DNA from: a virus | Taxonomy: Duplodnaviria; Heunggongvirae; Uroviricota; Caudoviricetes | IMG/VR virus record: IMGVR_UViG_3300017650_000009 | DNA: 64,000 nucleotides | Direction: 5' to 3' (one strand) | In this document: piece after piece, positions 16,144 to 50,799 of the stretch | Layout of the letters: each line of letters begins with the position of its first letter | Numbering within the stretch: the first letter of the stretch is position 1 | The notes under the pieces: model-generated | Told to the model about the DNA's origin: nothing | Database searches by the model: none | The model's input: only the letters and a program-made list of their open reading frames with translations | Made by a program: the position numbers and the translations under genes

Positions 16144-17007
16144 ATGCTTGTATATGCTGCTATCGGTGATGCTTATGGTGCTGCATTTGAATTCGTAGAT
16201 CATTCACGTTGGCCCGACAATGATGGGTTACATTTTTATGCTCATCCGGATTTGCCTTTGGGTAATGGCAAATATACCGATGATACACAAATGATGCTTG
16301 CTCTTGCACGTTTGCTTTTGGATTCAAATTCGTCTGAACTCCCAGACGCTGAAGAGTTCTTTGACGCATGGTTGACCACGTATAAGGAAAATCCGATTGA
16401 TGGTTATTCGAGTGGAATGAAAAAGCTACTTGAAGAATCAACAGATGCATTGGATCTAATGCAACGCCTGGTGCCGTCTAGTTCTCGTAGTGGTGCAGTA
16501 ATGCGAAGTGCGGTGCTAGGGTTCCTACCATCTGTTCTTATGTTAAAGAATTGGTCACGCAAACAAGTATCGACAACTCACAACACGGATATTTCACGTT
16601 ATTGTGGTAGTGCAATTAGTTTGGCTGCCCACTATTTGTTCCATCAAGTCGGTCCGCGTGATTCACTAGGTGAGTTTCTAAATAGGAATGCAGATTCACC
16701 TGTAAGCTTTATCGATTGGAATGAAGACCGTACGGAATGGGCGTCTGTGGAGGCCGTAGACTGTGCTAGGAACGCAATCACTGCATGGCGTAACTCGCGT
16801 ACTCTTACAGAGGTTCTCACAAACAGCGTAGCTCCTGGAGGCGATACTGACACTGTCGCGTGTATTGCAATGGCACTGGCATGGTGTGATGACACGATAA
16901 CAAACGATTTACCAACAAGTATGATTAATCAACTCAATGGTGGTGATTTCGGATTTGAATATCTTTTCAACACAACAAATGAGTTGATACGGAAATTTTC
17001 ACGATGA
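16144..17007 (+). CDS. ADP-ribosylglycohydrolase (DraG/ARH family)
   Basis: AIGDAYG, YTDDTQM, SGAVMR, GGDTDTVACIA. Confidence 0.92.
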   Translation: MLVYAAIGDAYGAAFEFVDHSRWPDNDGLHFYAHPDLPLGNGKYTDDTQMMLALARLLLDSNSSELPDAEEFFDAWLTTYKENPIDGYSSGMKKLLEESTDALDLMQRLVPSSSRSGAVMRSAVLGFLPSVLMLKNWSRKQVSTTHNTDISRYCGSAISLAAHYLFHQVGPRDSLGEFLNRNADSPVSFIDWNEDRTEWASVEAVDCARNAITAWRNSRTLTEVLTNSVAPGGDTDTVACIAMALAWCDDTITNDLPTSMINQLNGGDFGFEYLFNTTNELIRKFSR

Positions 17008-23126: not shown

Positions 23127-23576
23127 ATGAATTATAATGATATACGAACTACACATTTGTTTGAGCAGGATGACCTCTTTGAGGCTGTCGGAGATCTAAA
23201 GACCCAAATAACTCGTTTACGTCGTATGTTTGGAGCAGATGCAAAGGCTTATTTCCGAGCCAATTGGCGTAGTGTAGAGGAAGTGCTAGGTCAACCAACC
23301 CAATGGATCAGAGATTTCACGAGTCAATATCCTAGCGTGGACTCTCAACTATTGAGTGCGGTACTAATGAACATGCGTGAGGATGATTCTCTAAGAGATA
23401 AAGAGAATTATTTGAGAAGTGGTTATGAATCACGTGGATTCTGTGGCACAAATAGTGCTGTTGTTTGGGTTAGAGATAATGACAAACGCCAAGAGTATCT
23501 GCATTTGTTCTCAAAAAATGATGCAGCTTTAGGTAGCTTGCTCGGCTATATGCGACATTGCCGTTTGGTAAGTTGA
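23127..23576 (+). CDS. probable late or virion-internal protein
   Basis: TATAAATA upstream; N-terminal LFE...LFE. Confidence 0.55.
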   Translation: MNYNDIRTTHLFEQDDLFEAVGDLKTQITRLRRMFGADAKAYFRANWRSVEEVLGQPTQWIRDFTSQYPSVDSQLLSAVLMNMREDDSLRDKENYLRSGYESRGFCGTNSAVVWVRDNDKRQEYLHLFSKNDAALGSLLGYMRHCRLVS

Positions 23577-23629
23577 ATATTTTATTCCTACATGTTATCC
23601 TCTGGTCATAATAACCAGAGGATTTTCTT

Positions 23630-23878
23630 ATGAATTATATGGAACCATATATCGAAGCGATTAAAAAGTATGAGCAGGCAAATTTAAATCTTGAATCTGC
23701 TCGCCAATTCCTATATAGTGAGAAAACTAAAGAAGCTATGCAGGCATTTAGGTCTGCTCTAAATACGTGTACTATCACAGCTATTGATCGTAATCGTGAG
23801 GAAAGAAAACTTCTCCTACGTATTGAAGCTGAGGCACTCGGACAACTTGGAATTACACGCTCTTATGGAGATGAATGA
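23630..23878 (+). CDS. hypothetical protein
   Basis: GAGG SD; helical sequence. Confidence 0.55.
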   Translation: MNYMEPYIEAIKKYEQANLNLESARQFLYSEKTKEAMQAFRSALNTCTITAIDRNREERKLLLRIEAEALGQLGITRSYGDE

Positions 23879-23993
23879 ATTTTTCTTTCCAAAATGAGTT
23901 AAAGTAGTTGACAATTCGTTCACAAGAATATAAATATAAACATACAAATGCTCCGTGGCGGAGCAACAACAGAATTCAAAGGATTATTGGACC

Positions 23994-24146
23994 ATGTGTA
24001 ACGTCAATCAAAATAGCTGGCAAAAAGGCTTTGCGCCTAAGCCCGTGGCTATTGCGATTGCCGCGGTAGCTGGTTTTAATCTCGGGCTGGAAAATCAGCG
24101 CCCAGATTATACCGCCGGGTCCAACATCCGAGGAGTCGCTTACTAA
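23994..24146 (+). CDS. putative attenuator leader peptide (50 aa)
   Basis: Follows a TTGACA promoter; 3' codons lie within an antiterminator stem. Confidence 0.55.
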   Translation: MCNVNQNSWQKGFAPKPVAIAIAAVAGFNLGLENQRPDYTAGSNIRGVAY

Positions 24147-24173
24147 GCAAAAACTCCACAAAAGGATTTAAGG

Positions 24174-24210
24174 ACCCGGATTAGGAAACTAGTCCGGGTT
24201 TCGTGTTTTC
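24174..24210 (+). terminator. terminator hairpin of the putative attenuator
   Basis: 11-bp ACCCGGATTAG/CTAGTCCGGGT stem, GAAA loop, imperfect T tract. Confidence 0.7.
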
Positions 24211-24256
24211 CGCAGAAAACAAAATTTTCAAAAGAATGCAAAATAGTTGAAAAAAA

Positions 24257-24300
24257 TAGTTGACGCGGAAATAACTTGTGTATTATAAAAAGAACATAAC
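24257..24300 (+). promoter_or_regulatory. sigma70-type promoter of the main tRNA array
   Basis: TTGACG-N17-TATTAT(AAA) followed by GAACATA. Confidence 0.65.
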
Positions 24301-24543
24301 AAAAACAGTTGACACAGACCCTAAGGTATGCTAGACTGTTTGGTAAGAGCGCAGCGAAAGCTTATCTCTTACAGTTATAGGTGGTTGCTTCCCTATAGAA
24401 GCAAACTTCGGCTTGTAGGATAGCGTGAACTTCGAGTGTCACAATGCTAAACTGGTTTCAAGCGAAGGATACATTACGGGGTCGGACTGTAATAGGTTCG
24501 TCCCCCGTATTGAAAAGCTCAACCGATGGTTGGTCTTTTTTAT

Positions 24544-24618
<75 letters not shown>

Positions 24619-24620
24619 GT

Positions 24621-24750
24621 TTACGAGCCGATTTGTTTAGGTTATCTTTTTTGAACAAAGCGGGCCTGGGTTCAAATCCCAGCGTGAGAACTAGTTCTCA
24701 TGTGGTGTAGTGGTAGCATCGAAAACGTCTAAGCATGTACTTGCTCGTAG
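24621..24750 (+). ncRNA. YrlA/Y-RNA-like circularly permuted tRNA mimic
   Basis: Order is T-arm, capped acceptor stem, D-arm; ends pair with a bulged-C helix. Confidence 0.75.
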
Positions 24751-24758
24751 CTTAACCC

Positions 24759-24832
24759 GGTCTTATGGTGAATGGGTATCACACTAGTCTGTCTAACTGG
24801 AATAGCGGGTTCGAGCCCCGCTAAGATCGCCA
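24759..24832 (+). tRNA. tRNA-Asp(GTC)
   Basis: Cloverleaf, G73, CCA. Confidence 0.93.
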
Positions 24833-45753: not shown

Positions 45754-45832
45754 AGGGACCTAGCTTAAAATCAGGTGAAGCACTGCGGATCCATCCGCAG
45801 GTAGGTAGGTTCGAATCCTGCGGTCCCTGCCA
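45754..45832 (+). tRNA. Trp-like tRNA with aberrant 8-nt anticodon loop
   Basis: AGGGACC/GGTCCCT-G-CCA; loop GATCCATC. Confidence 0.6.
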
Positions 45833-50723: not shown

Positions 50724-50799
50724 GCGCTTATAGCTCAGTTGGTAGAGCAGGGATCTCTAAAATCTTTTGTCGTCGGTTCGAGCCCGACTAAGCGCACCA
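50724..50799 (+). tRNA. amber suppressor tRNA (anticodon CTA)
   Basis: GGGAT-CTCTAAA-ATCTT; otherwise canonical 76-nt cloverleaf, A73, CCA; own promoter. Confidence 0.9.

What the first reader, a model, noticed from the sequence alone, without database searches (positions are those of the whole stretch)
23905..24210. Leader-peptide attenuator at the head of the main tRNA array
Seen: a TTGACA promoter, then a 50-codon ORF (23994-24146). Its 3' end forms a nested long hairpin: CCGGGTCC 24115-22 with GGACCCGG 24172-79; ATCC/GGAT; GGAGT/ACTCC; GCTT/AAGC around the stop codon. This is mutually exclusive with an 11-bp GAAA-loop terminator at 24174-24199. The peptide contains 19 of the 20 amino acids, lacking only His (the one tRNA missing from the window), and uses many G/C-ending codons. 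Established: ribosome-coupled attenuation. Inference: if a ribosome reaches the stop codon, the terminator forms; if translation stalls from tRNA loss, the antiterminator forms and the phage tRNA array is upregulated. That would make it a general tRNA-depletion sensor, potentially against anticodon-nuclease defences. Caveat: further promoters near 24257 and 24307 lie downstream of the terminator.
Basis: partly seen in the sequence, partly recalled or inferred. Interest (0 to 1): 0.82.

Follow-up and report, generated by a model that had tools for sequence, protein, structure and literature searches.

The report
Translated RNA switch before phage tRNAs
At the head of the main tRNA gene array of a soil jumbo phage and nine relatives sits a short translated reading frame inside an RNA that can fold either into a transcription stop signal or into a shape that blocks it, which looks like a translation-sensing attenuator but has not been tested.

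Summary
I found nine relatives with the same layout: Sinorhizobium phage Phosso and eight metagenome contigs. Each has promoter P1, a 5' hairpin, a Shine-Dalgarno site, an ORF of 50-71 codons, a hairpin holding the stop codon, a GNRA-loop terminator, two further promoters, a structured RNA, then tRNA-Gly and tRNA-Asp.

The ORF is open in all ten lineages, with aligned ATG/GTG starts, but its peptide is only weakly constrained (pN/pS about 0.65).

One segment at the ORF's 3' end (B, 24115-24128) pairs with two partners. The other is the terminator's 5' arm plus upstream bases (C). Both pairings co-vary across lineages (exact permutations 4/720 and 2/720). Growing-transcript folds switch B from A to C and back to A as C and then D appear.

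Best reading, about 0.5: a translation-coupled attenuator with trp-like 1:2 / 2:3 / 3:4 logic.

Not supported:
- The "all amino acids, lacks only His" sensor idea.
- Any link to anticodon nucleases.

Unresolved:
- Two conserved promoters lie downstream of the terminator.
- The terminator's apical 5 bp could let it displace the antiterminator.
- There are no expression data.

The parts
23908..23936 (+). Promoter P1: TTGACA (23908-13), 15 nt, TATAAATA (23929-36)
   Evidence: Sequence read. TTGACAAT-N13-TATAAATA is present in all ten lineages. The sigma-70 scan did not call it. TATAAATA occurs 7 times on the + strand and once on the - strand in the window.
23950..23964 (+). 5'-proximal hairpin of the leader transcript
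   Evidence: Forms in the MFE folds. A hairpin of different sequence stands at the same place in the relatives.
23981..23993 (+). Segment A: Shine-Dalgarno GGAT plus TTGGACC, directly before the start codon
   Evidence: Pairs with segment B in the MFE of the full transcript in 9 of 10 lineages. Cognate A:B duplexes beat non-cognate ones (4/720 exact permutations).
23994..24146 (+). Leader ORF, 50 codons plus TAA
   Evidence: Homologues of 52-71 codons occur in nine relatives. Frame 0 has no stop and the other frames have 1-8 stops in the nine lineages counted; L033 has an open 71-codon frame. ATG/GTG starts are aligned. pN/pS is 0.24-0.94. No Pfam or PHROG family matches.
24115..24128 (+). Segment B: CCGGGTCC..ATCC, the hub that pairs with either A or C
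   Evidence: It is the best partner of both A and C in shuffle tests. The CC of the preceding Ala/Thr/Pro codon and the GGG codon are invariant in 10/10 lineages.
24132..24157 (+). Hairpin E with the stop codon (24144-46) at its tip
   Evidence: A two-tier hairpin is folded in nine lineages with very different stem sequences; z is -2.3 to -4.2 and UAA lies in or at the apical loop. The same arrangement is read directly in L033.
24164..24179 (+). Segment C: GGAT..GGACCCGG, i.e. bases upstream of the terminator plus the lower part of its 5' arm. Pairs with B as the antiterminator.
   Evidence: B:C is the MFE in 10/10 nascent transcripts that lack the terminator's 3' arm. Cognate duplexes beat non-cognate ones (2/720 exact permutations).
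24172..24212 (+). Intrinsic terminator: 13-bp stem, GAAA loop, U-rich tail (C:D)
   Evidence: Called by the scan. Compensatory changes occur in L012, L029 and L033. Cognate C:D duplexes beat non-cognate ones (84/50000 permutations).
24260..24289 (+). Promoter P2: TTGACG, 18 nt, TATAAA, preceded by an A-tract
   Evidence: Sequence read. The -35 block is conserved in the relatives (TTGACT in L031).
24309..24337 (+). Promoter P3: TTGACA, 17 nt, TG-n-TAGACT
   Evidence: Scan gives 10 of 12 matches plus TG. Conserved in all relatives.
24344..24535 (+). Structured RNA between P3 and tRNA-Gly (context; first product of the array transcript)
   Evidence: 5 compensatory pairs against Phosso. z is -3.7. 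No Rfam match.
24544..24617 (+). tRNA-Gly(gcc), the first tRNA of the array
   Evidence: ARAGORN and Rfam. It is the first tRNA after the leader in every relative.

Best explanation
The element is a translated leader embedded in a three-way RNA switch, placed in front of the phage's main tRNA array.

The 3' end of the leader ORF (segment B) has two possible partners. It can pair with the ribosome-binding region (A), which closes the Shine-Dalgarno site. Or it can pair with the bases that form the lower 5' arm of the terminator (C), which blocks the terminator C:D.

Inferred mechanism:
- With no ribosome on the RNA, A:B forms first. C is then free, the terminator forms, and the finished RNA is locked shut.
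- A ribosome that has started but lags keeps A occupied and B free. B then captures C as C emerges, and RNA polymerase reads on past P2 and P3 into the structured RNA and the tRNA genes.
- A ribosome that keeps pace reaches the stop codon. That codon sits inside the B:C-enclosed loop, so B:C is opened and the terminator forms.

The outcome would be that slow translation raises read-through. This is the three-state logic of the trp attenuator, but without regulatory codons, so it would sense translation speed in general.

Shown here: conservation of the ORF, the three alternative pairings and their co-variation, and the energy ordering.

Inferred only: that the ribosome decides the choice, and that read-through matters for tRNA output.
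For: Ten lineages share the full layout.

Evidence that the ORF is kept open:
- No stop in frame 0 against 1-8 stops in the other frames in the nine lineages counted; L033 also has an open frame.
- P(open) is about 0.04-0.09 per lineage under shuffling.
- Starts are aligned ATG or GTG behind a GGA(A/T) Shine-Dalgarno site.
- Within the ORF proper, the indels in a nucleotide-only alignment are all multiples of 3.
- The peptide itself is weakly constrained: pN/pS has a median of about 0.65, and variable sites number 27/28/34 at codon positions 1/2/3. This is what a sensor ORF would show.

Evidence for the folds:
- The full transcript gives A:B plus E plus terminator in 9/10 lineages.
- The nascent RNA lacking the 3' arm gives B:C in 10/10.
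- In growing-transcript MFE folds, B's partner goes from A (or a local helix) to C only while C is out and D is incomplete, then reverts.
- Window energies are -75.4 (A:B only), -83.1 (B:C) and -99.1 kcal/mol (A:B plus terminator).

Evidence for co-variation:
- Cognate against non-cognate duplex energies: A:B -15.75 against -13.67 (57/50000 permutations); B:C -22.20 against -20.53 (12/50000); C:D -20.2 against -17.3 (84/50000).
- With six distinct lineages and exact permutations: A:B 4/720, B:C 2/720.
- A, B and C change together in three lineages. Window: A GGAT..TTGGACC, B GGTCCAA.CATCC, C GGAT..GGACC. Phosso group: A GGAAACTGACC, B GGTCGGTTTTCC, C GGTTAACGGACC. L033: A GGATACC, B GGTATCC, C GATAC.

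Other points:
- B is the single best partner of both A and C.
- The stop codon lies in the apical loop of hairpin E, inside B:C, in 10/10 lineages.
- The distance from stop codon to terminator stem is held at 25-29 nt.
- z-scores of the leader fold are -5.0 and -6.4.
Against: - P2 and P3 lie between the terminator and the array and are conserved in all ten lineages. The array therefore does not depend on P1 read-through, and the regulatory gain may be small.
- The antiterminator covers only the lower 8 bp of a 13-bp terminator stem. The free apical 5 bp with its GNRA loop can nucleate and displace B. Findpath barriers from the B:C state to the terminator state are as low as 1-4 kcal/mol in four lineages.
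- The 7-bp core of B:C never varies, so its support comes from conservation, flanking co-variation and wobble-compatible changes, not from core co-variation.
- There is no run of regulatory codons.
- Seven of twelve amino-acid-invariant degenerate columns show synonymous variation. This hints at some selection on the peptide itself.
- The stable 5' hairpin and compact fold would equally suit a stable small RNA or mRNA with a role of its own.
- There are no expression, 3'-end or ribosome data.
Confidence: 0.5

Rival explanations
1. An autonomous small gene. A 50-71-residue phage protein has its own promoter and terminator. Its mRNA closes its own ribosome-binding site (A:B) once transcription ends. 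B:C is only a transient folding intermediate that keeps the site open during synthesis. The terminator merely ends the unit and shields P2 and P3 from upstream transcription. There is no regulatory link to the tRNA genes.
For: - The ORF is conserved with motifs SWQxKGF, YLGN and RPDxTxGS. Synonymous variation occurs at 7 of 12 invariant residues.
- It has its own promoter, a stable 5' hairpin and a strong terminator.
- The array has its own promoters P2 and P3.
- Phosso's annotators called it a CDS.
Against: - pN/pS of about 0.65 and near-equal variation at all three codon positions are unusual for a functional protein.
- The conserved residues coincide with RNA helices, and several four-fold sites are invariant (GGC, GGG, and ACC in 8 of 10).
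- An mRNA that shuts its own ribosome-binding site at equilibrium is a poor way to make protein.
- The co-variation of C with B (2/720) is not needed under this reading.
- No family match in Pfam or PHROGs.
Confidence: 0.27
2. A stable structured small RNA of about 270 nt that acts in trans or binds a protein. The reading frame would be tolerated, or used only marginally, and the alternative pairings would be folding aids.
For: - Very low folding z-scores (-5.0, -6.4).
- The element has a 5' hairpin, a 3' terminator hairpin and helices throughout the ORF, with conserved synonymous sites.
- GC is 0.52 against 0.42 for the phage.
- The neighbourhood is rich in non-coding RNAs.
Against: - The frame is open in all ten lineages despite large sequence turnover in hairpin E and in-frame indels.
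- The start codon and Shine-Dalgarno site are kept at a fixed place.
- The stop is always inside E. The joint chance of this is of the order of 1e-4.
Confidence: 0.1
3. One reading: a sensor of loss of any tRNA, built to contain all amino acids. It would raise phage tRNA synthesis as a counter to anticodon nucleases such as PrrC or VapC-type enzymes.
For: - The attenuator anatomy described above.
- 18-19 of 20 amino acids occur in nine homologues.
- The element sits at the head of a tRNA array in phages carrying dozens of tRNAs.
Against: - 19 of 20 residues is reached by 16% of random 50-residue windows of this phage.
- The missing residue differs between lineages: His in the window, Cys in most.
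- G/C-ending codons are not the ones phage tRNAs would be expected to supply in a 42% GC phage. They are better explained by RNA structure.
- Nothing in the sequence points to nuclease sensing.
- P2 and P3 bypass the terminator.
Confidence: 0.1

Closest known systems
Leader-peptide transcription attenuators of enteric amino-acid operons (trp, his, leu, thr, pheA, ilv); comparison from established knowledge
   Same: - A short translated leader, and an intrinsic terminator before the downstream genes.
- Three overlapping pairings (1:2, 2:3, 3:4) with the stop codon between segments.
- In trp, a distal segment also pairs with the leader's ribosome-binding site, limiting translation to about one round.
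   Different: - No run of regulatory codons.
- Segment 1 is the Shine-Dalgarno/start region itself rather than codons.
- The ORF is 50-71 codons rather than 14-32.
- The downstream genes are tRNAs and a non-coding RNA, not biosynthetic enzymes.
- Two promoters lie downstream of the terminator.
- It is phage-encoded.
Ribosome-stalling leader ORFs that sense translation inhibition (antibiotic-responsive attenuators found by Term-seq, erm/cat-type leaders); comparison from established knowledge
   Same: A leader ORF whose slowed ribosome changes RNA folding and switches on downstream genes. It responds to the state of translation in general, not to one amino acid.
   Different: - Those leaders are short, and many depend on a specific arrest peptide and a drug.
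- Here the spacing between the conserved residues and the stop codon is not fixed (12-15 residues).
- Here no drug context exists.
pyrBI / pyrE coupling attenuators; comparison from established knowledge
   Same: Termination depends on how closely the leading ribosome follows RNA polymerase. No regulatory codons are needed.
   Different: In pyr leaders the ORF runs into the terminator and the ribosome itself blocks the hairpin. Here the ORF ends 25-29 nt before the stem and a separate antiterminator exists.
Fold-back inhibition in type I toxin mRNAs (hok family); comparison from established knowledge
   Same: Long-range pairing between the translation start region and a 3' segment locks the finished transcript in an untranslatable form.
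   Different: - No antisense RNA was seen.
- The peptide is not consistently hydrophobic: Phosso-type peptides are amphipathic, not membrane-like.
- The 3' partner lies inside the ORF.
T-box leaders (tRNA-sensing riboswitches)
   Same: A structured leader of 200-300 nt with a terminator/antiterminator choice, linked to tRNA biology.
   Different: - No match to the Rfam T-box model or to any other family at E up to 5.
- It contains a conserved translated ORF.
- No specifier loop or T-box bulge was seen.

Membership tests
Leader-peptide (ribosome-mediated) transcription attenuator | Short ORF with a ribosome-binding site, translated, upstream of the controlled genes | tested here: met
   The ORF is open in 10/10 lineages with aligned ATG/GTG starts and a GGA(A/T) Shine-Dalgarno site; other frames carry 1-8 stops in the nine lineages counted. 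Translation itself is inferred, not observed.
Leader-peptide (ribosome-mediated) transcription attenuator | Intrinsic terminator between the leader ORF and the downstream genes | tested here: met
   13-bp stem, GNRA loop and U-rich tail. Compensatory changes in L012, L029 and L033.
Leader-peptide (ribosome-mediated) transcription attenuator | Antiterminator pairing that excludes the terminator and lies where a ribosome can affect it | tested here: met
   B:C is the MFE in 10/10 nascent RNAs. Flanking co-variation gives 2/720. The stop codon lies inside the B:C loop. Caveat: the core never varies, and the terminator's apical 5 bp stays free.
Leader-peptide (ribosome-mediated) transcription attenuator | Upstream pairing (1:2) that competes with the antiterminator | tested here: met
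   A:B is present in 9/10 MFE folds and co-varies at 4/720. It is a variant form, because segment 1 is the Shine-Dalgarno region.
Leader-peptide (ribosome-mediated) transcription attenuator | Regulatory codons (a run of codons for the sensed amino acid) | tested here: not met
   The ten peptides show no codon run or conserved repeat.
Leader-peptide (ribosome-mediated) transcription attenuator | The controlled genes depend on read-through, with no promoter in between | tested here: not met
   P2 and P3 lie between the terminator and the array and are conserved in all lineages.
Leader-peptide (ribosome-mediated) transcription attenuator | Read-through changes with translation of the leader | not testable with these tools
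   It needs reporters, Term-seq or in vitro transcription-translation. The one metatranscriptome contig covers only 24289-24444.
T-box riboswitch | Match to the T-box covariance model (Stem I specifier, T-box sequence) | tested here: not met
   No hit at E up to 5 in 23400-24800.
Type I toxin mRNA with fold-back inhibition | Small hydrophobic toxin peptide and a cis-encoded antisense RNA | tested here: not met
   Peptides of the Phosso group are amphipathic and charged, and the hydrophobic stretch is not conserved. No minus-strand promoter or terminator pair stands out.

The most novel reading that the evidence does not exclude
These roughly 430-480-kb phages (434,884- and 480,347-bp contigs; Phosso 469,473 bp) measure the cell's translation elongation capacity with a codon-unspecific leader. 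They feed the result back onto transcription of their own tRNA array and the adjoining structured RNA. This may matter mainly late in infection, if P1 with its TATAAATA box is a late promoter while P2 and P3 are early. It would be a homeostat for phage-supplied translation capacity, and it would also respond to tRNA-targeting defences.
Probability: 0.2. Interest if true: 0.85.

Novelty: new variant of a known kind. Interest (0 to 1): 0.66.

Why it matters
Large phages carry dozens of tRNA genes, and how their expression is set is unknown. A conserved, translated RNA switch directly before the array would be the first candidate control element for phage tRNA supply. It would also extend leader-peptide attenuation from amino-acid operons to RNA genes, and from single-codon sensing to general translation speed.

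The element is compact, at about 270 nt. Ten natural variants already supply compensatory mutants. A cultured member exists (Phosso on Sinorhizobium meliloti), so the idea can be tested directly.

Even if the attenuation reading fails, the three-way co-varying pairing around a translated ORF is a clear case of overlapping RNA-level and coding constraints.

Tried and rejected
Searches that found nothing useful:
- Exact and shortened DNA motif scans of IMG/VR found no relatives. The three hits to the terminator motif were coding-sequence chance matches without tRNAs.
- A protein-based scan of IMG/VR with the 473-residue neighbour found nothing.
- The genome-contig scan gave only chance hits.
- No whole genome is held for the window.
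- tblastn of the peptide against isolated phages found only Phosso.
- The HMM search of 1.84 billion representatives added one true relative (P0014) and several spurious repetitive proteins.

Alignment-based folding:
- RNAalifold on the MAFFT alignment does not recover A:B, because the pairing register shifts between lineages. It offers a weak local helix for B instead.
- I therefore used per-sequence folds and cognate/non-cognate duplex energies.

Kinetics:
- Findpath barriers were too noisy to settle the question.
- My first dinucleotide-shuffle script timed out, so mononucleotide shuffles were used.

Sequencing runs:
- Near-identical strains show no variation inside 23952-24207, so they add no co-variation.
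- The only RNA library with words of this stretch has a contig over 24289-24444 and none over the leader. This is not evidence either way.

Ideas rejected:
- T-box and other Rfam families: no match.
- The 63-codon GTG start at 23955: the relatives align to the ATG at 23994.
- A TnaC-like arrest peptide: the spacing between the conserved residues and the stop codon is not fixed.

Literature: searches found no description of such an element.

Full report
**What is there**

The window is a 42.5% GC stretch of a soil-metagenome jumbo phage. Its own peptide record sits on a 434,884-bp contig, and the runs are soil metagenomes. It carries 42 tRNA genes.

- TTGACA at 23908-13.
- A 50-codon ATG ORF at 23994-24146.
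- The nested pairings CCGGGTCC/GGACCCGG, ATCC/GGAT, GGAGT/ACTCC and GCTT/AAGC around the stop codon.
- A GAAA-loop terminator at 24172-24201 with a U-rich tail.
- Two further promoters, P2 at 24260-89 and P3 at 24309-37.

P1 is unusual. TTGACA is followed after 15 nt by TATAAATA, and the sigma-70 scan did not call it.

**Relatives**

Among isolated phages only Sinorhizobium phage Phosso (469 kb) matches. Its non-coding stretch 24173-24524 is 78.6% identical, while a neighbouring 473-residue protein is only 58% identical.

Further relatives came from three searches:
- An 18-mer from the downstream RNA found a compost-metagenome contig, L012.
- A profile of the three peptides found five more lineages, L026, L027/L028, L029, L030, L031 and L032.
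- An exhaustive HMM search added a more distant one, L033.

All ten lineages share the same order of parts: P1 (TTGACAAT-N13-TATAAATA), a 5' hairpin, a Shine-Dalgarno site, the ORF, a hairpin with the stop codon, the terminator, P2, P3, a hairpin-led RNA, tRNA-Gly(gcc), and in nine of the ten tRNA-Asp (L033 has a second tRNA-Gly instead).

**Is the ORF real?**

- Frame 0 has no stop in any lineage, whereas the other two frames have 1-8 stops each in the nine lineages counted. Shuffled sequences stay open with probability 0.04-0.09 per lineage; L033 has an open 71-codon frame.
- Start codons (ATG or GTG) align behind GGA(A/T).
- Within the ORF proper, indels in a nucleotide-only alignment are multiples of three.
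- All stops are TAA.
- The peptide is weakly constrained. pN/pS is 0.24-0.94 with a median near 0.65, and variable sites number 27, 28 and 34 of 48 at codon positions 1, 2 and 3.
- The conserved motifs (SWQxKGF, YLGN, RPDxTxGS) coincide with RNA helices, and several four-fold sites never vary. Even so, 7 of 12 invariant residues show synonymous changes.
- There is no Pfam or PHROG family.

I conclude that the frame is translated, and that the act of translation is more likely under selection than the product.

**The RNA**

The leader folds far better than shuffles, with z of -5.0 for the window and -6.4 for Phosso.

The Shine-Dalgarno/start region (A, 23981-93) pairs with the same ORF-end segment (B, 24117-28).

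| Transcript | Result |
|---|---|
| Full length | A:B plus hairpin E plus terminator is the MFE in 9 of 10 lineages |
| Stopped before the terminator's 3' arm | B:C is the MFE in 10 of 10 |
| Growing 2 nt at a time | B's partner switches from A or a local helix to C only while C is out and D is incomplete, then reverts |

For the window the energies are -75.4 (A:B only), -83.1 (B:C) and -99.1 kcal/mol (A:B plus terminator).

**Co-variation**

A, B and C change together in three lineages:

| Lineage | A | B | C |
|---|---|---|---|
| Window | GGAT..TTGGACC | GGTCCAA.CATCC | GGAT..GGACC |
| Phosso group | GGAAACTGACC | GGTCGGTTTTCC | GGTTAACGGACC |
| L033 | GGATACC | GGTATCC | GATAC |

Cognate duplexes are more stable than non-cognate ones:

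| Pairing | Cognate (kcal/mol) | Non-cognate (kcal/mol) | Permutations as good |
|---|---|---|---|
| A:B | -15.75 | -13.67 | 57/50000 |
| B:C | -22.20 | -20.53 | 12/50000 |
| C:D | -20.2 | -17.3 | 84/50000 |

With six distinct lineages and exact permutations the counts are 4/720 for A:B and 2/720 for B:C.

- B is the best partner of C anywhere in the ORF (P 0.000-0.008) and of A (P 0.008-0.10).
- The 7-bp core of B:C is invariant, so it gives no co-variation of its own.
- The CC of the codon before GGG is kept in 10/10 lineages although that codon reads Ala, Thr or Pro.
- In L029 the terminator changed A-U to G-C while B kept a U that still pairs as G-U.
- In L012 a terminator change is matched by an extra pair with B.
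- Hairpin E has entirely different stems in each lineage, yet always carries UAA at its tip.
- The distance from stop codon to terminator stem is 25-29 nt.

**Mechanism (inferred)**

The arrangement is the 1:2 / 2:3 / 3:4 design of the trp attenuator (established knowledge).

- With no ribosome, A:B forms first, C is free and the terminator forms. The released RNA has its ribosome-binding site shut.
- A ribosome that has initiated but lags keeps A occupied and B free, so B captures C and polymerase reads on.
- A ribosome that keeps pace runs to the stop codon inside the B:C loop. It opens B:C, and the terminator forms.

Slow translation would thus raise transcription into the structured RNA and the tRNA genes. 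I give this about 0.5.

**What weakens it**

- P2 and P3 are conserved and lie after the terminator. P3 is a near-consensus extended -10 promoter, so the array does not need P1.
- The terminator's upper 5 bp and GNRA loop stay free in the B:C state and could drive strand displacement. Findpath barriers are as low as 1-4 kcal/mol in four lineages, although these estimates are noisy.
- There are no regulatory codons.
- A 5' hairpin and compact fold would equally suit a stable RNA with its own role.
- No expression data bear on the leader.

- 19 of 20 amino acids is reached by 16% of random 50-residue windows of this phage.
- His is present in 7 of 10 homologues, and Cys is what most lack.
- ARAGORN calls neither tRNA-His nor tRNA-Trp.
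- The G/C-ending codons (GC3 0.52 against 0.38) fit RNA structure.

Nothing links the element to anticodon nucleases. I give that version about 0.1.

**Comparison and novelty**

The element works like a leader-peptide attenuator. It meets four structural criteria of that class and fails two: there are no regulatory codons, and there are promoters between the terminator and the genes. It is not a T-box, not a pyrBI-type leader because the ORF ends 25-29 nt before the stem, and not a hok-type toxin mRNA.

Full-text searches found no description of a leader ORF or attenuator before a phage tRNA array. The paper on the related Sinorhizobium jumbo phage AP-J-162 mentions neither promoters nor terminators.

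I rate it a new variant of a known kind, with interest 0.66. The anatomy and co-variation are strong and the context is new. The function is untested, and its effect may be small.

Noticed in passing
window 24344-24535: A structured RNA of about 190 nt lies between P3 and tRNA-Gly. It is about 88% identical to Phosso and L012, with 5 compensatory pairs and z -3.7, and it has no Rfam match. Its first hairpin (GCGCAGCGAAAGC core) is kept in the relatives, with point changes in L029 and L033, while the rest is replaced in some.
   Followed up: partly
window 24372-24542; L031 3881-4657: This is a replaceable cassette. Near-identical strains in two other sequencing studies carry 856 other bases in place of these 171. 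L031 has a T5orf172-domain gene at the same place. L033 has a different stretch of about 330 nt there.
   Followed up: partly
window 9523, 23095, 23929, 32325, 47318, 54125, 57768: TATAAATA occurs 7 times on the + strand and once on the - strand, against 3.1 expected per strand. The sites are mostly just upstream of ORFs or tRNAs. Some follow TTGAC[AC] at 17-18 nt and some have no -35 box. This resembles the T4 late-promoter box, so P1 might be a late or dual promoter.
   Followed up: partly
window 24240-24340: P2 and P3 form a tandem pair. A-rich tracts precede the -35 boxes, and a block of about 29 nt around P2's -35 is conserved in most relatives. This is reminiscent of tandem rRNA/tRNA operon promoters with UP elements.
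   Followed up: no
window 24623-24686: A weak tRNA-like match (20 bits, below the gathering score) lies directly after tRNA-Gly.
   Followed up: no
window 50724-50799 and 45754-45832: ARAGORN labels a tRNA with anticodon CTA, which reads the amber stop, as Pyl. It also reports an odd tRNA with an unresolved anticodon loop. No tRNA-His or tRNA-Trp is called in the window.
   Followed up: no
window 16144-17007: This ORF matches the ADP-ribosylglycohydrolase family (Pfam PF03747, E 9e-31).
   Followed up: no
L027 5477-5563; L029 4949-5024: Relatives carry tRNA-like genes with four-base anticodons (gctg, gaaa) according to ARAGORN.
   Followed up: no
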